Assembly (NCBI RefSeq): GCF_003334305.1 | Contig: NZ_QOWS01000033.1 | Direction: 5' to 3' (one strand) | Length of the DNA stretch: 35,452 nt | Origin: Escherichia coli | GTDB lineage: Bacteria; Pseudomonadota; Gammaproteobacteria; Enterobacterales; Enterobacteriaceae | In this document: in pieces, positions 7,634-35,163 of the stretch | Numbering within the stretch: the stretch's first letter is position 1 | Layout: every line of letters starts with the position of its first letter | The notes under the pieces: generated by a model | The model's input: only the letters and a program-made list of their open reading frames with translations | What the model was told of the DNA's origin: nothing | Database searches by the model: none | Translations under genes and position numbers: made by a program

Positions 7634-8115
7634 TGATGGTGCTGGGATTGTACGTGTTTATGCTGCGCACCGTGCCGTATCAGGAGCTGCAGTATCAACG
7701 CAGCTGGCGACATGCGGCAAACAGCCGGGTAAACCGACGTCCGTCCACGCAGTTTCTGGGACCGGACAACGACATGCTGACGCTTTCCGGTGTTCTTATG
7801 CCGGAGATAACAGGTGGCAGGCTGTCGTTGCTGGCACTGGAGCAGATGGCAGAACAGGGGAAAGCATGGCCCCTGATTGAAGGCAGCGGCACGATTTATG
7901 GCATGTATGTGATTGAGGGACTGAATCAGACTAAAACGGAGTTTTTCCGCGACGGTATGCCGCGCCGGATTGAGTTCACCCTGTCGCTCAAACGGGTGGA
8001 TGAATCCCTGTCCGATATGTTCGGTGATCTCAGTGCGCAACTGAATAATCTGCAGGAAACGGCAACGTCTGCCTTAAGCGATATCAGTAAAACGGTGGGA
8101 GGGCTGCTGTCGTGA
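7630..8115 (+). CDS. Tail protein gpU
   Basis: 161 aa, ATGA overlap with T. MMMVLGLYVFMLRTVPYQELQ.. is a P2 gpU-type sequence. Confidence 0.9.
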   Translation: MMMVLGLYVFMLRTVPYQELQYQRSWRHAANSRVNRRPSTQFLGPDNDMLTLSGVLMPEITGGRLSLLALEQMAEQGKAWPLIEGSGTIYGMYVIEGLNQTKTEFFRDGMPRRIEFTLSLKRVDESLSDMFGDLSAQLNNLQETATSALSDISKTVGGLLS

Positions 8116-9212
8116 ATTTCAGCTCTGAACTGCTTAACAAAAGCAACAAAACTCCGGCATTCAGCATCAGTATTGAGGGCAGGGATATCACTACTGTGCT
8201 GGATAACCGCCTGATGAGTCTGACTCTGACGGACAATCGGGGCTTTGAAGCAGACCAGCTTGATCTGGAGCTGGACGATGCCGACGGGAAAATCGTGCTG
8301 CCGCGCCGTGGTGCGGTCATTACGCTGGCGCTGGGCTGGAAGGGGCAGCCGCTTTTCCCGAAAGGGGCATTCACGGTGGACGAGATTGAACACACTGGCG
8401 CACCGGACCGCCTGACTATCCGGGCGCGAAGTGCTGATTTTCGGGAAACGCTGAATACCCGCCGTGAAAAATCGTGGCACAAGACCACCATTGGGGAAGT
8501 GGTGAAGGAGATAGCCGCGCGGCACAAGCTGAAGATGGTACTGGGTAAAGACCTGTCGGATAAGCTCGTGGAGCATATAGACCAGACTAATGAGAGTGAC
8601 GGTAGTTTTCTGATGCGGCTGGCGCGCCAGTACGGTGCTATTGCGTCGGTGAAAAATGGCAATCTGTTATTCATCCGGCAGGGACAGGGCAAAAGTGCCA
8701 GCGGTAAACCACTGCCGGTGATCACTATCACACGTAAGGACGGCGACAGTCACCGCTTTACCCTGGCAGATCGCGGAGCCTATACGGGCATAATTGCCAG
8801 CTGGTTGCATACCCGCGAACCCGCGAAGAAAGAAAGCACCACGGTGAAGCGTAAGCGCAGGACTAAGAAGCAGAAGAAAGAGCCGGAAGCGAAGCAGGGC
8901 GATTACCTGGTGGGTACGGATGAAAACGTGCTGGTACTTAATCGCACTTATGCCAACCGGAGCAACGCTGAACGGGCAGCGAAAATGCAGTGGGAACGCC
9001 TGCAACGCGGCGTTGCGTCATTCTCGCTACAACTGGCGGAAGGGCGGGCAGATCTCTACACGGAAATGCCAGTGAAAGTCAGTGGCTTTAAACAGCCGAT
9101 AGATGATGCGGAATGGACCATTACGACTCTGACACATACCGTCAGCCCGGATAATGGTTTTACGACCAGTCTTGAGCTTGAAGTGAAGGTTGATGATCTC
9201 GAAATGGAATGA
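8112..9212 (+). CDS. Tail/late protein gpD
   Basis: 366 aa, GTGA overlap with U. The ..ISIEGRDIT..LMSLTLTDNRGFEADQLDLELDD.. motif is typical of gpD. Confidence 0.9.
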   Translation: MNFSSELLNKSNKTPAFSISIEGRDITTVLDNRLMSLTLTDNRGFEADQLDLELDDADGKIVLPRRGAVITLALGWKGQPLFPKGAFTVDEIEHTGAPDRLTIRARSADFRETLNTRREKSWHKTTIGEVVKEIAARHKLKMVLGKDLSDKLVEHIDQTNESDGSFLMRLARQYGAIASVKNGNLLFIRQGQGKSASGKPLPVITITRKDGDSHRFTLADRGAYTGIIASWLHTREPAKKESTTVKRKRRTKKQKKEPEAKQGDYLVGTDENVLVLNRTYANRSNAERAAKMQWERLQRGVASFSLQLAEGRADLYTEMPVKVSGFKQPIDDAEWTITTLTHTVSPDNGFTTSLELEVKVDDLEME

Positions 9213-9302
9213 TTCTTCACAATGGAGAACTTTTAAGTTTGAAAAATGGAATAATGCGATATCATTATTGTGAATTTAGCAAAAATGGGGAGAACTCGAA
9301 AA

Positions 9303-9521
9303 ATGATGATTTGCCCACTGTGTGGAAGTGCCGCCCATACTCGCAGCAGTTTTCAGGTATCTTCATTGACCAAAGAGCGTTACAACCAGTGCCAGAACAT
9401 TAACTGCAGCCATACTTTTGTTACCCATGAAACTTTTGTTCGTTCGATTGCAACGCCAAAAGAGTCAAATCCGGTTCAGCCGCATCCTCATAAATTTAAA
9501 CAGGTGGGTTTGCCGATTTAA
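9303..9521 (+). CDS. ogr: Ogr late-gene transcriptional activator (zinc-finger)
   Basis: MMICPLCGSAAHTRSS...KERYNQCQNINCSHTF has the Cys-X2-Cys...Cys-X4-Cys pattern of P2 Ogr. Starting at 9303 gives 72 aa. The ORF track start at 9270 and the ATG at 9285 are alternatives. Confidence 0.9.
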   Translation: MMICPLCGSAAHTRSSFQVSSLTKERYNQCQNINCSHTFVTHETFVRSIATPKESNPVQPHPHKFKQVGLPI

Positions 9522-9585
9522 ATGGCGACATAACTACATGATTTAAAACTATACTTTTCTATAAGTTGAGGTTAAATTAACAATG

Positions 9586-9762
9586 CCTGACGTTAGCGGG
9601 GATTTATCCCCACTCCGTAGATATGTAGTTTGTCGCTTTGCGACTGCGGACCGATTACCTGATTGCCATGTAATCGGACGCCGACTTGTTAAGCTTTCTG
9701 GGCTAACTGGTTGTTATTTTTTATTTAGTTAGGGCCATGCGCTTGCGCTAAGAGACGTCAGG
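9586..9762 (+). ncRNA. Candidate structured RNA upstream of the RT (retron msr/msd-like or DRT-type template RNA); ends not determined
   Basis: There is no credible ORF. A long-range helix pairs 9586-9598 (CCTGACGTTAGCG) with 9746-9751 + 9756-9762 (CGCTAA / CGTCAGG), leaving a 4-nt bulge. It encloses abutting hairpins at 9598-9611, 9614-9650, 9651-9677 (8-bp stem CCGATTAC/GTAATCGG) and 9701-9736. Folded by eye only. Confidence 0.45.
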
Positions 9763-9782
9763 TATCTATGGAGGAACAAGTT

Positions 9783-9956
9783 ATGGATACAAACGAACTT
9801 GGCTTAGTTAAGGCGCGTGTTGAACTGATCACCGCTATGCTCAAATGCGCAACCGCGTTTGTTGGCTTAGTTGGTGCGGTTTACGCCGTTCTTAACATGG
9901 CCTTCAACTACAACAATTTAACTCATGACAATAGAAGTTCAAAGGTGGGAAGATAA
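9783..9956 (+). CDS. Small hydrophobic protein (57 aa, one predicted TM helix), candidate effector/toxin partner of the RT
   Basis: GGAGGA at 9770-9775 lies 7 nt before the ATG at 9783. The sequence is MDTNELGLVKARVELITAMLKCATAFVGLVGAVYAVLNMAFNYNNLTHDNRSSKVGR, with a hydrophobic core CATAFVGLVGAVYAVLNMAF. Its 3' end overlaps the RT start by 32 nt. It could instead be part of the ncRNA. Confidence 0.5.
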   Translation: MDTNELGLVKARVELITAMLKCATAFVGLVGAVYAVLNMAFNYNNLTHDNRSSKVGR

Positions 9957-10698
9957 ATTTGAGATTAAGCCCGGGGTTTGGGTTTATGTCCCAAGCGTTG
10001 AGGCACGTAAAGTCGGAGGGAAGATACTTCAGGCTGTCAGAAACAAGTGGATTCCGCCACTCTATTTTTACCATCTAAGAACTGGTGGGCATCTTAAAGC
10101 TGCCAGATTACACTTAAAAAGTGATTTTTTTGCCGTTGTTGATATTAAACAATTTTTTCAGTCAACGAGCCGTAGTCGTATCACCCGTGATCTAAAGAGC
10201 TACTTCACCTATTCTCAAGCGCGGGAAATCTCAACATTTTCAACTGTAAGAAACTTGTCCCATAGTCCACATAAGCATGTCCTCCCTTTTGGTTTTGTTC
10301 AATCTCCAATACTTGCAACCCTCTGCTTAGATAAAAGTTATTTTGGTAGCTTACTACGCCGATTGAACAAACATCATGATCTCAAGCTAAGTGTGTTTAT
10401 GGATGATGTGATCATCTCGTCAAACGATTTGGCCCAATTACAAGCGGCTTACGACGAAGCACTAGTGGCAATGCGTAAATCTGGTTATCAAGCCAACATG
10501 AGTAAAACTCAGGCACCATCGTCAAAGATTAGCGTGTTTAATTTAACTTTGAGTAAGGGAGTTATGAAAGTCACATCTCAGAAAATGAGTGACTTCCTGA
10601 TTGATTTCTATTCAAGCAATTATGAGCCGCACAGAATAGGGGTCAAAAACTACGTCGAAGCTGTTAATCCAGGGCAAGCGAAACTCTTTAAGTTGTAA
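9925..10698 (+). CDS. Minimal reverse transcriptase (257 aa), retron/DRT-like, unclassified
   Basis: RT motifs seen in order: KVGGKIL (motif 1-like), FFAVVDIKQFFQSTS (motif A, Asp at 10141-10143), LPFGFVQSPILATLCL (motif B'), LSVFMDDVIISS (motif C, FMDD at 10396-10407), GYQANMSKTQ (motif D), ISVFNLTLS (motif E). Only ~50 aa follow motif E. Confidence 0.85.
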   Translation: MTIEVQRWEDKFEIKPGVWVYVPSVEARKVGGKILQAVRNKWIPPLYFYHLRTGGHLKAARLHLKSDFFAVVDIKQFFQSTSRSRITRDLKSYFTYSQAREISTFSTVRNLSHSPHKHVLPFGFVQSPILATLCLDKSYFGSLLRRLNKHHDLKLSVFMDDVIISSNDLAQLQAAYDEALVAMRKSGYQANMSKTQAPSSKISVFNLTLSKGVMKVTSQKMSDFLIDFYSSNYEPHRIGVKNYVEAVNPGQAKLFKL

Positions 10699-10767
10699 TT
10701 GCGATCGCATGTAGTAGCAACTGGGCTTGACTGAATGTCTGCCGCCATTTTGCCGCCACTACTAAAG

Positions 10768-10795
10768 AAAAAAGGGCTACGCTTTCACGTAACCC
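10768..10795 (-). terminator. Rho-independent terminator immediately after ssrA
   Basis: The minus strand reads GGGTTACG-TGAAAG-CGTAGCCC followed by TTTTTT. It begins 12 nt after the CCA end. Confidence 0.75.
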
Positions 10796-10806
10796 CTTGA
10801 TTTATT

Positions 10807-11169
10807 TGGTGGAGCTGGCGGGAGTTGAACCCGCGTCCGAAATTCCTACATCCTCGGTACTACATGCTTAGTCAGTCTTTACATTCGCTTGCCAGCTGCG
10901 GACGGACACGCCACTAACAAACTAGCCTGATTAAGTTTTAACGCTTCAACCCCAGGCAGGGCTTCCACGCGATCTCTTTTGGGTTTGACCTCTCTTGATC
11001 CCCGTCCTAAGAGCGGAGGCTAGGGAGAGAGGGCTCTAAGCAGGTTATTAAGCTGCTAAAGCGTAGTTTTCGTCGTTTGCGACTATTTTTTGCGGCTTTT
11101 TACGAGGCCAACCGCCCCTCGGCATGCACCTTGGGTTTCGCAAATCCCGTCGAATCCAGAATCAGCCCC
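10807..11169 (-). ncRNA. ssrA: tmRNA (SsrA), 363 nt
   Basis: The reverse complement reads GGGGCTGATTCTGGATTCGACGGGATTTGCG...GGTTCAACTCCCGCCAGCTCCACCA. The tag ORF GCAAACGACGAAAACTACGCTTTAGCAGCTTAA (ANDENYALAA*) is at 11080-11048. Confidence 0.98.
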
Positions 11170-29018: not shown

Positions 29019-29041
29019 AGTGTTGCCTTTTTGTTATCAAT

Positions 29042-29070
29042 AAAAAAGGCCCCCCGATTTGGGAGGCCTT
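29042..29070 (-). terminator. pheA attenuator terminator hairpin
   Basis: The minus strand reads AAGGCCTCCCAAATCGGGGGGCCTTTTTTA, between pheL and pheA. Confidence 0.85.
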
Positions 29071-29116
29071 ATTGTTCGTCTTCGCATTCTGTTTCACACG
29101 ACGAAACGCCTCCCAT

Positions 29117-29164
29117 TCAGGGGAAGGTAAAAAAGAATGCGAAGAAAAACGGTGTGTGTTTCAT
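29117..29164 (-). CDS. pheL: pheA leader peptide
   Basis: The minus strand reads ATGAAACACACACCGTTTTTCTTCGCATTCTTTTTTACCTTCCCCTGA, giving MKHTPFFFAFFFTFP*. It has seven Phe codons. Codon 4 is ACA (Thr), where I recall ATA (Ile) in K-12. Confidence 0.9.
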   Translation of the reverse strand: MKHTPFFFAFFFTFP

Positions 29165-29220
29165 GTTTGTTTCCTTAAGTGACTTTAGTACAGTACCCGT
29201 ACTGTTTTCACGCTGTCAAC

Positions 29221-32460: not shown

Positions 32461-32521
32461 CCTAAAGAATCAAGACGATCCGGTACGCGTGATTTTCTTT
32501 TCACATTAATCTGGTCAATAA

Positions 32522-32551
32522 CCTTGAATAATTGAGGGATGACCTCATTTA
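32522..32551 (+). promoter_or_regulatory. clpB sigma-32 promoter
   Basis: CCTTGAAT (32522-32529), 13 nt, CCTCATTTA (32543-32551). Confidence 0.75.
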
Positions 32552-32589
32552 ATCTCCAGTAGCAACTTTGATCCGTTATGGGAGGAGTT

Positions 32590-35163
32590 ATGCGTCTGGA
32601 TCGTCTTACTAATAAATTCCAGCTTGCTCTTGCCGATGCCCAATCACTTGCACTCGGGCACGACAACCAATTTATCGAACCACTTCATTTAATGAGCGCC
32701 CTGCTGAATCAGGAAGGGGGTTCGGTTAGTCCTTTATTAACATCCGCTGGCATCAATGCTGGCCAGTTGCGCACAGATATCAATCAGGCATTAAATCGTT
32801 TACCGCAGGTTGAAGGTACTGGTGGTGATGTCCAGCCATCACAGGATCTGGTGCGCGTTCTTAATCTTTGCGACAAGCTGGCGCAAAAACGTGGTGATAA
32901 CTTTATCTCGTCAGAACTGTTCGTTCTGGCGGCACTTGAGTCTCGCGGCACGCTGGCCGACATCCTGAAAGCAGCAGGGGCGACCACCGCCAACATTACT
33001 CAAGCGATTGAACAAATGCGTGGAGGTGAAAGCGTGAACGATCAAGGTGCTGAAGACCAACGTCAGGCTTTGAAAAAATATACCATCGACCTTACCGAAC
33101 GAGCCGAACAGGGCAAACTCGATCCGGTGATTGGTCGTGATGAAGAAATTCGCCGTACCATTCAGGTGCTGCAACGTCGTACTAAAAATAACCCGGTACT
33201 GATTGGTGAACCCGGCGTCGGTAAAACTGCCATCGTTGAAGGTCTGGCGCAGCGTATTATCAACGGCGAAGTGCCGGAAGGATTGAAAGGCCGCCGCGTA
33301 CTGGCGCTGGATATGGGCGCGCTGGTGGCTGGGGCGAAATATCGCGGTGAGTTTGAAGAACGTTTAAAAGGCGTGCTTAACGATCTTGCCAAACAGGAAG
33401 GCAACGTCATCCTGTTTATCGACGAATTACATACCATGGTCGGCGCGGGTAAAGCCGATGGCGCAATGGACGCCGGAAACATGCTGAAACCGGCGCTGGC
33501 GCGTGGTGAATTGCACTGCGTAGGTGCCACGACGCTTGACGAATATCGCCAGTACATTGAAAAAGATGCTGCGCTGGAACGTCGTTTCCAGAAAGTGTTT
33601 GTTGCCGAGCCTTCCGTTGAAGATACCATTGCGATTCTGCGTGGCCTGAAAGAACGTTACGAATTGCACCACCATGTGCAAATTACTGACCCGGCAATTG
33701 TTGCAGCGGCGACGTTGTCTCATCGCTACATTGCTGACCGTCAGCTGCCGGATAAAGCCATCGACCTGATCGATGAAGCAGCATCCAGCATTCGTATGCA
33801 GATTGACTCAAAACCAGAAGAACTCGACCGACTCGATCGTCGTATCATCCAGCTCAAACTGGAACAACAGGCGTTAATGAAAGAGTCTGATGAAGCCAGT
33901 AAAAAACGCCTGGATATGCTCAACGAAGAACTGAGCGACAAAGAACGTCAGTACTCCGAGTTAGAAGAAGAGTGGAAAGCAGAGAAGGCATCGCTTTCTG
34001 GTACGCAGACCATTAAAGCGGAACTGGAACAGGCGAAAATCGCTATTGAACAGGCTCGCCGTGTGGGGGACCTGGCGCGGATGTCTGAACTGCAATACGG
34101 CAAAATCCCGGAACTGGAAAAGCAACTGGAAGCCGCAACGCAGCTCGAAGGCAAAACTATGCGTCTGTTGCGTAATAAAGTGACCGATGCCGAAATTGCT
34201 GAAGTGCTGGCGCGTTGGACGGGGATTCCGGTTTCTCGCATGATGGAAAGCGAGCGCGAAAAACTGCTGCGTATGGAACAAGAACTGCACCATCGCGTCA
34301 TTGGTCAGAACGAAGCGGTTGATGCGGTATCTAACGCTATTCGCCGTAGCCGTGCGGGGTTGGCGGATCCAAATCGCCCGATTGGTTCATTCCTGTTCCT
34401 CGGCCCAACGGGTGTGGGGAAAACTGAGCTTTGTAAGGCGCTGGCGAACTTTATGTTTGATAGCGACGAGGCGATGGTCCGTATCGATATGTCCGAGTTT
34501 ATGGAGAAACACTCGGTGTCTCGTCTGGTTGGTGCGCCTCCGGGATATGTCGGTTATGAAGAAGGTGGCTACCTGACCGAAGCTGTGCGTCGTCGTCCGT
34601 ATTCCGTCATCCTGCTGGATGAAGTGGAAAAAGCGCATCCGGATGTCTTCAACATTCTGTTGCAGGTACTGGATGATGGTCGTCTGACTGACGGGCAGGG
34701 GAGAACGGTCGACTTCCGTAATACGGTTGTCATTATGACCTCTAACCTCGGTTCCGATTTGATTCAGGAACGCTTCGGTGAACTGGATTATGCGCACATG
34801 AAAGAGCTGGTGCTCGGTGTGGTAAGCCATAACTTCCGTCCGGAATTCATTAACCGTATTGATGAAGTGGTGGTCTTCCATCCGCTGGGTGAACAGCACA
34901 TTGCCTCGATTGCGCAGATTCAGTTGAAACGTCTGTACAAACGTCTGGAAGAACGTGGTTATGAAATCCACATTTCTGACGAGGCGCTGAAACTGCTGAG
35001 CGAGAACGGTTACGATCCAGTCTATGGTGCACGTCCTTTGAAACGTGCTATCCAGCAGCAGATCGAAAACCCGCTGGCACAGCAAATACTGTCTGGTGAA
35101 TTGGTTCCGGGTAAAGTGATTCGCCTGGAAGTTAATGAAGACCGGATTGTCGCCGTCCAGTAA
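32590..35163 (+). CDS. clpB: Disaggregase chaperone ClpB
   Basis: [27 protein letters not shown].., 857 aa, with two Walker A motifs ([16 protein letters not shown]). The ORF-track start at 32578 is 4 codons upstream, over the RBS GGAGGAG. Confidence 0.98.
33034..33036 (+). other. clpB: Internal GTG start (Val149) for the short ClpB isoform
   Basis: A GTG at codon 149 is preceded by GGAGGTGAAAGC. Dual translation initiation of clpB is established for E. coli. Confidence 0.7.

What the first reader, a model, noticed from the sequence alone, without database searches (positions are those of the whole stretch)
9586..9762. Multi-hairpin RNA closed by a long-range helix, with a TTAGCG element where retrons carry the branching G
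**Seen in the sequence**
- CCTGACG (9586-9592) pairs with CGTCAGG (9756-9762).
- TTAGCG (9593-9598) pairs with CGCTAA (9746-9751).
- Together they form a 13-bp closing helix with a 4-nt bulge.
- Inside it, four hairpins abut with almost no linkers:
  - GGGGA-TTTA-TCCCC at 9598-9611.
  - An extended hairpin at 9614-9650, containing GTCGC-TTT-GCGAC.
  - CCGATTAC-N11-GTAATCGG at 9651-9677.
  - A hairpin with a U-rich loop at 9701-9736.

**Established knowledge**
- Retron msr-msd RNAs are closed by the a1/a2 inverted repeats.
- The priming 2'-OH guanosine lies directly at the end of that stem in a UAGC-like context.
- As I recall, Ec86 reads ..CCCTTAGCGAGAGG.. there.

**Inference**
- G9596 (or a neighbouring G) could be a branch/priming residue.
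- The region 5' of the right arm could be the cDNA template.
- Unlike classical msd, I see no single long hairpin, so a non-retron template RNA (DRT-like) is equally possible.
Basis: partly seen in the sequence, partly recalled or inferred. Interest (0 to 1): 0.78.

Follow-up and report, generated by a model that had tools for sequence, protein, structure and literature searches.

The report
Retron-like RNA of a prophage RT module

Summary
The interval is a real, conserved non-coding RNA. A covariance model built from relatives finds exactly one copy per locus, just upstream of a homologous 250-265-aa reverse transcriptase (RT), in 78 of 100 sources (window 9584-9763, 71.6 bits).

**Confirmed.** The 7-bp closing helix (9586-9592 with 9756-9762) covaries strongly. 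So do hairpin P1 (9598-9611) and GTCGC-TTT-GCGAC (P2). UAG 9594-9596, containing G9596, is invariant.

**Not confirmed.**
- TTAGCG:CGCTAA clashes with a conserved hairpin, GCGC-loop-GCGC (P4).
- The "extended hairpin" 5' strand is really an anti-Shine-Dalgarno segment (9613-9623). It pairs with 9763-9773, the ribosome-binding site of a conserved 57-aa helical protein (SP, 9783-9956) whose gene overlaps the RT gene.
- The U-rich-loop hairpin is not conserved.

A positioned -10 box puts the RNA 5' end at the helix.

**Classification.** The RT is retron-type by profile and fold but fits no catalogued type well. The best match is Type VI at only 63 bits, the VTG motif is replaced by VFN, and there is no HTH gene.

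**Best reading.** This is an HTH-less, Type VI-like retron variant. Its RNA would serve as RT template/primer and as a translational lock on a small toxin. cDNA synthesis, the branch G and toxicity are untested.

The parts
9573..9578 (+). -10-like promoter hexamer TAAATT. It would place the transcript 5' end at about 9584-9586.
   Evidence: A TANNNT motif starts 10-12 nt upstream of the covariance-model hit in 58 of 70 distinct loci. A TTGNNN motif lies at -35/-34 in 25 of 70. The generic promoter scan did not call it.
9584..9763 (+). Whole conserved non-coding RNA, as matched by the covariance model.
   Evidence: Model R1 scores 71.6 bits, E = 3e-14, and this is the only hit in the window. 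There is one hit per locus in 78 of 100 sources, always on the RT strand and just upstream of the SP and RT genes. No Rfam family matches.
9586..9592 (+). 5' arm of the closing helix (CCUGACG), analogous to retron a2.
   Evidence: Pairs with 9756-9762. Covariation is shown, and the arms change together across clades.
9594..9596 (+). Invariant UAG. G9596 is the candidate priming or branching G.
   Evidence: T11, A12 and G13 are invariant in the 70- and 52-sequence alignments. In most relatives A and G pair inside P1. The role is inferred.
9598..9611 (+). Hairpin P1 (GGGGA UUUA UCCCC).
   Evidence: Present in the minimum-free-energy fold. The stem is kept in close relatives through loop changes and one stem change. 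The family-wide P1 is 77% paired, with 5 pairs changed on both sides, but its register is shifted in this clade.
9613..9623 (+). Anti-Shine-Dalgarno segment (CUCCGUAGAUA).
   Evidence: Forms an 11-bp duplex with 9763-9773 at -16.4 kcal/mol. Over 31 non-redundant loci, own pairings average -14.1 against -9.55 +/- 0.48 kcal/mol for permuted partners, with 0 of 5000 permutations as low.
9632..9644 (+). Hairpin P2 (GUCGC UUU GCGAC). The family consensus is GUCAC NNN GUGAU.
   Evidence: 98% paired with compensatory changes (AU 58/GC 16; CG 62/UA 6).
9651..9713 (+). Variable domain P3, made of P3a (9651-9677) and P3b (9682-9713). It is the candidate msd-like template region.
   Evidence: Both hairpins appear in the minimum-free-energy fold. 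P3a keeps its pairing through double changes in relatives. Length and sequence vary across the family, and some loci carry tandem repeats here.
9725..9730 (+). Conserved single-stranded motif UUAGUU (UUGGUU in most relatives).
   Evidence: The flanking T pairs are invariant or nearly so in the alignments. The motif is visible in all clades.
9739..9748 (+). Hairpin P4 (GCG CUUG CGC), followed by UAAG.
   Evidence: The GCGC/GCGC stem is 99.7% paired and almost invariant among gamma- and beta-proteobacterial members. It changes in a compensatory way in distant loci, for example GUGCC/GGCAA and GCAC/GUGC.
9756..9762 (+). 3' arm of the closing helix (CGUCAGG), analogous to retron a1.
   Evidence: Pairs with 9586-9592.
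9763..9774 (+). Shine-Dalgarno strand (UAUCUAUGGAGG) of the SP gene, sequestered by 9613-9623.
   Evidence: GGAGG at 9770-9774 lies 8 nt upstream of ATG 9783.
9783..9956 (+). SP gene: a 57-aa protein predicted as one long helix, with an invariant Asn-Tyr.
   Evidence: Annotated by PGAP. A homologous small ORF overlaps the RT start in nearly all loci. Profile hits are all 'hypothetical' with no Pfam domain. The AlphaFold2 model has a helix over residues 3-54, pLDDT 76.8.
9925..10698 (+). Reverse transcriptase gene, 257 aa.
   Evidence: Pfam RVT_1, E = 2e-21. Retron RT profiles score best. The AlphaFold2 model has pLDDT 95.3, and the top 17 fold matches in the PDB are retron RTs.

Best explanation
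**What it is**
The interval is the non-coding 5' part of a single transcript. That transcript starts at about 9584-9586 from its own promoter and continues into a small-protein gene (SP, 9783-9956) and an overlapping reverse-transcriptase gene (RT, 9925-10698). Together they form a compact retron-like module. It lies at the right end of a P2-like prophage, between ogr and attR at ssrA.

**RNA anatomy**
- A 7-bp helix closes the RNA.
- Inside are an invariant UAG, hairpins P1 and P2, a variable hairpin domain P3, a conserved UUAGUU motif and hairpin P4.
- The segment between P1 and P2 pairs with the Shine-Dalgarno sequence of SP.

**Proposed mechanism**
1. The RT recognises the conserved elements.
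2. It uses the closing helix, and a nearby G such as G9596, to prime cDNA synthesis on the P4-to-P3 part. The product would be roughly 100-110 nt.
3. The same RNA keeps SP untranslated.
4. A trigger such as phage infection changes cDNA synthesis, RNase H cleavage or the RNA fold. This frees the Shine-Dalgarno sequence, and the helical SP is made and harms the cell (abortive infection).

**Shown here**
- Conservation, covariation and promoter position.
- Shine-Dalgarno pairing.
- Strict RNA-SP-RT linkage.
- Retron-type RT fold.

**Inferred**
- That cDNA is made, and which nucleotide primes it.
- That SP is toxic.
- That the module defends against phage.
For: - **One RNA per locus.** The covariance model gives one hit per locus in 78 of 100 sources, always just upstream of the SP and RT genes.
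- **Helices covary.**
- **Positioned promoter.** A -10 box sits at a fixed distance in 58 of 70 loci.
- **Anti-SD:SD duplex covaries.** Own pairings average -14.1 against -9.55 kcal/mol for permuted partners, 0 of 5000 permutations as low. The duplex covers a purine-rich SD-like motif in 30 of 31 loci.
- **Two competing folds.** The closing-helix fold and the SD-sequestered fold are nearly equal in energy (-69.1 against -68.5 kcal/mol in the window). The minimum-free-energy fold picks one or the other about equally across the family, 32 against 33 of 70.
- **SP-RT overlap.** SP and RT overlap in nearly all loci.
- **No third gene.** No third gene recurs in 74 loci.
- **Retron-type RT.** Retron profiles are the best match for 38 of 38 members. 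A family profile against solved structures finds retron RTs first, and so does the fold search.
- **Published precedent.** Type VI retrons show the same logic. They have the order ncRNA then SP, a sequestered SP ribosome-binding site, and msDNA-dependent derepression (bioRxiv 10.1101/2025.10.22.683967; bioRxiv 10.64898/2026.04.27.721009).
Against: - There is no experimental evidence for a transcript, cDNA, branch, toxicity or defence.
- The retron VTG triplet is VFN, with an invariant Asn where retrons have their most conserved Gly.
- The UAG is paired inside P1 in most relatives.
- This clade has no single long msd hairpin.
- The Type VI RT profile scores only 63 bits, barely above types I-B and IX.
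- The HTH partner that represses reverse transcription or neutralises SP in studied Type VI retrons is absent.
- No direct repeat links the anti-SD segment to the presumed template, so the riboregulator idea proposed for Retron-Vpa2 does not transfer.
- The closing helix and the SD helix cross topologically, with a linker of only 0-4 nt. Whether they coexist as a pseudoknot or alternate is unresolved.
Confidence: 0.6

Rival explanations
1. The RNA is a purely cis-regulatory leader. It would act as a translational attenuator, or as an RT-binding operator, that sets SP and RT expression. It would not be reverse-transcribed.
For: - The Shine-Dalgarno sequestration covaries.
- Two nearly equal-energy folds exist.
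- The RT start has no Shine-Dalgarno sequence of its own and overlaps SP, so the leader controls both genes.
Against: - About 150 nt of conserved structure lies far from the Shine-Dalgarno sequence (P2, UUAGUU, P4, the closing helix, UAG). That is more than a simple attenuator needs.
- The terminal inverted repeats match the retron layout, in which the RNA is the template (PMC7736814).
- The characterised retron RTs use a cognate adjacent RNA as template.
Confidence: 0.15
2. The RNA is a template for a non-retron, DRT-like mode of cDNA synthesis with no 2'-5' branch. Examples would be protein-primed or 3'-OH-primed synthesis, or repetitive or rolling synthesis.
For: - VTG is replaced by VFN.
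- This clade has no long msd hairpin.
- The variable domain carries tandem repeats with changing copy number in relatives.
- SP has an invariant Tyr.
- DRT9 appears among the fold matches (rank 18).
Against: - The best UG/DRT profile (UG33, 5.7e-9) is far weaker than about 20 retron profiles.
- The top 17 fold matches are retron RTs.
- The closing helix plus an adjacent conserved G is the retron arrangement.
Confidence: 0.17
3. The interval encodes the 49-aa ORF 9583-9732, and the hairpins are incidental.
For: An ATG-initiated ORF spans the interval.
Against: - Indels of 1, 4 and 9 nt break the frame in 80%-identity relatives.
- Substitutions preserve base pairs, not codons.
- The ORF has no family match.
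- The likely transcription start is at or after its ATG.
Confidence: 0.01
4. The interval is a phage P2 element, such as the ogr terminator or attP-arm protein-binding sites, unrelated to the RT.
For: It lies between ogr and attR.
Against: - The same RNA accompanies the RT in non-P2 contexts across gamma- and beta-proteobacteria, in loci whose flanks differ.
- No terminator-like site is called in it on the + strand.
Confidence: 0.01

Closest known systems
Type VI retrons (Retron-Vpa2, Retron-Eco12, Retron-Sen3)
   Same: - Gene order: structured ncRNA, then a small helical protein (SP), then the RT, on one transcript.
- The SP ribosome-binding site is buried in the RNA structure.
- The RT is short.
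- The Type VI profile is the best-scoring RT profile.
- Mechanistic precedents: msDNA-dependent derepression of SP translation in Vpa2, and an SP toxin in both Vpa2 and Sen3.
   Different: - There is no Cro/C1 HTH gene. SP overlaps the RT gene directly.
- The RT scores only 63 bits on the Type VI profile, and nearly the same on I-B and IX.
- SP is about 45-60 aa with an invariant Asn-Tyr. Homology to the Type VI SP clusters could not be tested, because no sequences were available.
- The closing helix ends before SP. In Vpa2 the inverted repeat wraps around the SP coding region.
- There is no direct repeat of the Vpa2 kind.
Canonical retron msr-msd RNA, e.g. Ec86/Eco1
   Same: - Terminal inverted repeats close the RNA.
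- Short 5' hairpins are followed by a variable hairpin domain.
- A conserved G lies just after the 5' repeat.
- The window even shares the hexamer TTAGCG with Ec86 at that spot.
- The RT fold is retron-type (TM-score 0.73-0.77).
   Different: - The RT is only 23% identical to the Ec86 RT.
- VTG is replaced by VFN, and NAXXH reads AxxxH.
- This clade has no single long msd stem.
- The RNA also sequesters the effector's Shine-Dalgarno sequence.
- The effector is a 57-aa peptide, not an enzyme.
- No Rfam family matches.
DRT2/DRT9-type defence RTs with an upstream ncRNA template (UG/Abi family)
   Same: A compact RT with a structured upstream ncRNA. The variable region carries repeats in some relatives.
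   Different: The RT is closer to retron profiles than to UG profiles. DRT9 is only fold rank 18. This module has a closing helix and a small effector gene.
Abi-P2, the RT in the variable locus of P2-like coliphages
   Same: An RT carried as cargo by P2-like prophages and linked to phage exclusion (PMC9122126; PMC11077055 abstract).
   Different: Abi RTs are described as template- and primer-independent (PMC11077055 abstract); that they are larger and sit in another prophage locus is from my own knowledge. Here the RT is retron-type, with a cognate RNA and SP, and lies between ogr and attR.

Membership tests
Retron (Mestre et al. 2020 definition) | The RT belongs to the retron / retron-like RT lineage. 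| tested here: met
   All 38 family members match retron RT profiles best. A family profile against solved structures finds retron RTs first (E = 5e-12, against 5.6e-5 for group II intron RT). The top 17 fold matches are retron RTs. Scores are nevertheless low for every individual type.
Retron (Mestre et al. 2020 definition) | [quoted passage not shown] | tested here: not met
   The alignment to the Ec86 RT puts VFN opposite VTG. F205 and N206 are invariant in the family.
Retron (Mestre et al. 2020 definition) | [quoted passage not shown] | tested here: inconclusive
   H63 is invariant and aligns with the H of the Ec86 NATPH. The N position is Ala59.
Retron (Mestre et al. 2020 definition) | A cognate ncRNA next to the RT, closed by terminal inverted repeats, with 5' hairpins and a variable stem-loop domain. 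| tested here: met
   Covariation is shown. The model finds one hit per locus.
Retron (Mestre et al. 2020 definition) | A conserved branching G at the end of the 5' repeat, which primes through its 2'-OH. | tested here: inconclusive
   The invariant UAG, with G9596, lies 1-2 nt after the 5' arm. In most relatives it is paired inside P1. The chemistry cannot be tested here.
Retron (Mestre et al. 2020 definition) | Production of msDNA, an RT-dependent single-stranded DNA. | not testable with these tools
   This needs RT immunoprecipitation or PAGE and sequencing, with a catalytic mutant as control.
Retron (Mestre et al. 2020 definition) | An associated effector gene that co-evolves with the RT. 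| tested here: met
   A homologous SP ORF overlaps the RT start in most loci (111 of 135 by a search that required the NY motif; also visible in the motif-free ORF listing). Its function as an effector is untested.
Type VI retron | The RT falls inside the Type VI lineage (RT clade 3). | tested here: inconclusive
   RT_VI is the top PADLOC profile for the window RT, and gives the lowest best E-value among the 38 family members, but reaches only 63 bits (best family E = 1.9e-24). That is close to RT_I-B (3.7e-22) and RT_IX. No phylogeny with true Type VI sequences was possible.
Type VI retron | A Cro/C1-type HTH protein encoded between SP and RT (about 78% of members; the antitoxin or repressor in the studied cases). 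| tested here: not met
   SP overlaps the RT gene. No third gene recurs in 74 loci. The called genes around the exact SP are gpD, ogr, SP and RT only.
Type VI retron | A small helical SP encoded just downstream of the ncRNA, with its ribosome-binding site sequestered in the RNA structure. | tested here: met
   SP is 57 aa and predicted as one long helix. The SD:anti-SD duplex covaries. Sequence homology to the Type VI SP clusters was not tested, because no sequences were available.
UG/Abi defence RTs (DRT) | The RT belongs to a UG or Abi clade. | tested here: not met
   The best UG profile (UG33, E = 5.7e-9) is weaker than about 13 retron-type profiles. NCBIfam Drt3a scores 17.6 bits against a cut-off of 200.
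Any Rfam RNA family | A match to a curated covariance model. | tested here: not met
   No family reaches its gathering score in this interval. With E up to 10 only chance-level hits appear, on the opposite strand.

The most novel reading that the evidence does not exclude
The RT may not prime from an RNA 2'-OH at all. Instead the invariant tyrosine of the co-translated one-helix SP (the Asn-Tyr motif) would act as a protein primer. The closing helix and UAG would then only position the template. That would make this a terminal-protein-primed retron relative, and SP would become covalently linked to the cDNA.

A less radical version is that the RNA is a bistable or pseudoknotted switch, in which reverse transcription itself unlocks toxin translation without any HTH partner.
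Probability: 0.07. Interest if true: 0.9.

Novelty: new variant of a known kind. Interest (0 to 1): 0.68.

Why it matters
- **An overlooked family.** It defines a large retron-like family. More than 500 protein clusters match at E <= 1e-10. The listed ones that carry a name are labelled only 'reverse transcriptase' or 'hypothetical protein' (one is mislabelled 'RNase P protein component'), and none is called a retron. The RTs score far below the cut-offs used in retron surveys (160 bits, lowest reference 114.5 bits).
- **A well-supported RNA.** The cognate RNA structure is backed by covariation across the family.
- **A minimal architecture.** The unit is RNA + about 50-aa peptide + about 255-aa RT, with no HTH. 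This makes testable the open question raised by Type VI retrons: how reverse transcription is coupled to translation of a small toxin.
- **Clinical relevance.** The module rides on P2-like prophages of E. coli and Klebsiella. It is 99% identical in protein to S. Typhi STY2879, which is used as a diagnostic target of unknown function.
- **Tool potential.** A 257-aa retron-type RT with a 180-nt RNA could interest developers of retron-based DNA production tools.

Tried and rejected
**Readings tested and rejected**
- Rfam at gathering score and at E <= 10: nothing relevant.
- Coding reading of ORF 9583-9732: rejected because indels break the frame.
- TTAGCG:CGCTAA pairing: rejected because it clashes with P4 and P1 and is not kept in relatives.
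- The U-rich-loop hairpin and the 'extended hairpin': not conserved.
- A Vpa2-style direct repeat between the anti-SD segment and the presumed template: longest common substring 5.19 against 4.83 in shuffles, so not supported.
- A third conserved gene or an HTH: none found in 74 loci.

**Approaches that failed or gave nothing**
- The generic sigma-70 scan missed the promoter. A positional analysis across the family found it.
- An unrestricted duplexfold search for arms was uninformative, because it allowed long loops.
- A regex hairpin finder was noisy.

**Could not be done**
- Type VI retron sequences could not be obtained from supplements. A direct RT phylogeny and an SP comparison with Type VI were therefore not possible.
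- A text search for the Ec86 hexamer context found nothing. It was verified on genome DNA instead.
Full report
**Context**

The window is an E. coli chromosome segment with the right end of a P2-like prophage. The features in order are:
- the tape-measure gene, gpU and gpD (8112-9212);
- ogr (9270-9521);
- the finding;
- a small ORF;
- a 257-aa reverse transcriptase (RT, 9925-10698);
- ssrA tmRNA (10807-11169, minus strand) and smpB.

The 1285-bp stretch from ogr to ssrA is present, nearly identical, in 28 of 5426 complete E. coli genomes. It also lies at the very end of 13 Klebsiella prophage records.

The two heptamers CCTGACG and CGTCAGG are at the stated coordinates. They close the minimum-free-energy fold, which is -62.9 kcal/mol with z = -3.56.

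The RT has many relatives of 250-265 aa (72 by single-sequence search). I fetched 133 homologous loci from genomes and viral contigs.

Sequence conservation in 80%-identity relatives starts sharply at CCTGACG and ends at CGTCAGG. A nucleotide profile still finds the element, full length, where the RT is only 45% identical.

A MAFFT alignment of 70 distinct loci, made without any structural input, gives these figures:
- The six core pairs of the closing helix are 100% paired, with frequent double changes (AU 36/GC 33; UA 49/CG 19; CG 60/UA 10; CG 58/UA 11).
- The whole tested structure is 92.4% paired, against 29-41% when partners are slid.
- 0 of 500 shuffles reach it.

A covariance model then found one hit per locus in 78 of 100 sources. 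Every hit is on the RT strand, immediately upstream of the RT, and there are no hits elsewhere in 743 kb. The window hit is 9584-9763 at 71.6 bits. The resulting alignment is 90.5% paired, with 18 pairs changed on both sides.

Right:
- the closing heptamers;
- hairpin P1 (9598-9611);
- GTCGC-TTT-GCGAC (P2, 9632-9644), which is a family-wide covarying hairpin;
- CCGATTAC/GTAATCGG, supported by double changes in close relatives.

Wrong or unsupported:
- **TTAGCG:CGCTAA.** CGC of CGCTAA is the 3' strand of a conserved hairpin, GCGC-loop-GCGC (P4, 9739-9748). This hairpin is almost invariant in most members and changes in a compensatory way in distant ones. Relatives read TTAGCC, TTAGCT or TTAGGC opposite an unchanged GCGCTAAG.
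- **The 'extended hairpin'.** It is not conserved. Its 5' strand has another partner, described below.
- **The U-rich-loop hairpin.** It consumes the conserved single-stranded UUAGUU/UUGGUU motif and is not kept.

**New anatomy**

*Promoter.* In 58 of 70 distinct loci a TANNNT hexamer starts 10-12 nt upstream of the model hit, and TTGNNN sits at -35/-34 in 25 of 70. In the window the hexamer is TAAATT at 9573-9578. The RNA therefore probably begins at the 5' arm.

*Small protein.* A small ORF follows the RNA and overlaps the RT start in nearly all loci.
- In the window it is 9783-9956 (57 aa), served by GGAGG at 9770-9774.
- Asn-Tyr near the end of a long helix is invariant. My first search required that motif, but the unbiased ORF listing shows it too.
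- AlphaFold2 predicts one long helix.
- All database relatives are 'hypothetical', with no Pfam domain.

*Shine-Dalgarno sequestration.* The segment between P1 and P2 (9613-9623, CUCCGUAGAUA) pairs with 9763-9773 (UAUCUAUGGAG), which contains the SP Shine-Dalgarno sequence. The duplex has 11 bp and -16.4 kcal/mol.
- The pairing is kept with different sequences in other clades: UCCGUAGAA/UUCUACGGA, CUCUCUGUAC/GUAUAGAGAG and CCUCAUCAA/UUGAUGAGG.
- Over 31 non-redundant loci, own pairings average -14.1 against -9.55 +/- 0.48 kcal/mol for permuted partners, with 0 of 5000 permutations as low.

*Relation between the two long-range helices.* The closing helix and this helix cross (order a, b, a', b'), with only 0-4 nt between a' and b'.
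- In nested folding they are alternatives of almost equal energy: -69.1 against -68.5 kcal/mol in the window.
- The minimum-free-energy fold contains one or the other in 32 and 33 of 70 sequences.
- Whether they form a strained pseudoknot or a two-state switch cannot be decided here.

*No third gene.* None recurs in 74 diverse loci. The flanks are integrases, phage tail genes or unrelated genes.

**The RT**

- Pfam RVT_1 matches at E = 2e-21.
- PADLOC's best profile is retron RT_VI, but at only 63 bits, just above I-B, IX and II-A. All 38 aligned family members match RT_VI, whose best family E-value (1.9e-24) is only slightly below those of RT_I-B and RT_IX.
- NCBIfam retron models score far below their cut-offs.
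- A family profile against solved structures finds retron RTs first: Ec86, Kva2, Eco8, Ec78, Ec67 and Ec83.
- The AlphaFold2 model (pLDDT 95.3) matches 17 retron RT chains before anything else, with TM-scores of 0.68-0.77.
- In the alignments to Ec86, the retron VTG triplet is VFN, with F205 and N206 invariant. NAXXH keeps only its His.
- A profile search finds 507 proteins at E <= 1e-10. The top 120 are all about 255 aa, and none is named a retron.
- A 2026 retron survey kept RTs of at least 160 bits on a general retron profile, with the lowest reference at 114.5 bits. If scores on that profile are similarly low, the survey would miss this family.

**Comparison with the literature**

Type VI retrons are the closest known system.
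- They have the order ncRNA, SP, HTH, RT. The SP ribosome-binding site is buried in the RNA.
- In Retron-Vpa2, phage-induced msDNA is needed to translate the toxic SP, and the HTH represses reverse transcription.
- In Retron-Sen3, SP is made constitutively and the HTH neutralises it.

The present family shares the RNA-SP-RT order and the ribosome-binding-site sequestration. It differs in three ways:
- it lacks the HTH;
- its closing helix ends before SP;
- it shows no Vpa2-like direct repeat.

I found no paper that describes it. The same RT protein (99% identical) is STY2879 of S. Typhi, known only as a LAMP target of unknown function.

The locus reads TGCGCACCCTTA|GCGAGAGG, with TAAGGGTGCGCA downstream. 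Family-wide, however, only UAG is conserved.

**Most likely mechanism (inference)**

1. One transcript carries the RNA, SP and RT.
2. The RT binds the conserved core (UAG, P2, UUAGUU, P4).
3. It primes next to the closing helix and copies P4 through P3.
4. The anti-SD helix keeps SP silent.
5. A trigger that changes cDNA synthesis or stability, RNase H severing of the template, or the balance between the two folds releases the Shine-Dalgarno sequence.
6. SP is made, and RT with it through translational coupling, and SP harms the cell.

Alternatives are a pure translational leader (0.15) and a DRT-like template with other priming (0.17). Trivial readings, such as a coding ORF or a P2 element, are rejected.

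**Verdict**

This is a real, strongly supported structured RNA. It belongs to an uncatalogued, HTH-less, Type VI-like retron variant. The branch G and cDNA synthesis remain untested.

Noticed in passing
L116 vs L120, L117 vs L132, L089 vs L091, L126/L127 (variable domain of the homologous RNAs): The variable mid-domain carries short tandem repeats, for example GGGACTCCT units, ACTCACTGGG units and an extra TTACTGGGT. Their copy number differs between otherwise near-identical loci. This suggests slippage, or a region whose length is free to vary.
   Followed up: partly
L135 3001-4763; L137 3001-4811: In divergent SP-RT loci a UDG-family gene (PF03167) lies just downstream and an integrase upstream. 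In L137 the RT position holds only a 98-aa ORF.
   Followed up: no
window 9925-10698: The RT is 99% similar to S. Typhi STY2879, which is used as a 'Typhi-specific' LAMP target (PMC4409374, PMC12942956). The same module occurs in E. coli and in Klebsiella prophages. This is a possible specificity issue. The DNA-level identity to Typhi was not checked.
   Followed up: partly
window 9768-9785: The longest ORF for SP starts at ATG 9768 (62 aa). That ATG lies inside the Shine-Dalgarno helix and has no Shine-Dalgarno sequence of its own. ATG 9783 (57 aa, as in PGAP and in homologues) is the likely start.
   Followed up: yes
window 9905-9956: The RT start codon at 9925 has no obvious Shine-Dalgarno sequence and lies 32 nt inside the SP ORF. 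Overlaps of 4-80 nt are the rule in relatives. This implies that RT translation is coupled to SP translation.
   Followed up: partly
window 10734-11169: The prophage is integrated at the 3' end of ssrA (tmRNA, 10807-11169, minus strand). Window 10734-10806 matches att-proximal DNA of other P2-like phages. The same prophage end is also found next to a different chromosomal locus, an ABC transporter / AprE-like gene pair, in L141 and L142.
   Followed up: partly
window 29040-29165 (-) and 32471-32609 (+): A Phe leader and the RyfD sRNA were found by Rfam. Both are ordinary chromosomal features unrelated to the finding.
   Followed up: no
L059, L063, L064 and other alphaproteobacterial loci: These loci are missed by the covariance model. 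They still show a closing helix, for example CCCUAGCA/UGCUAGGG, in which UAG lies inside the arm, together with a GC-rich hairpin with changed sequence. The RNA family probably extends further than the model reaches.
   Followed up: partly
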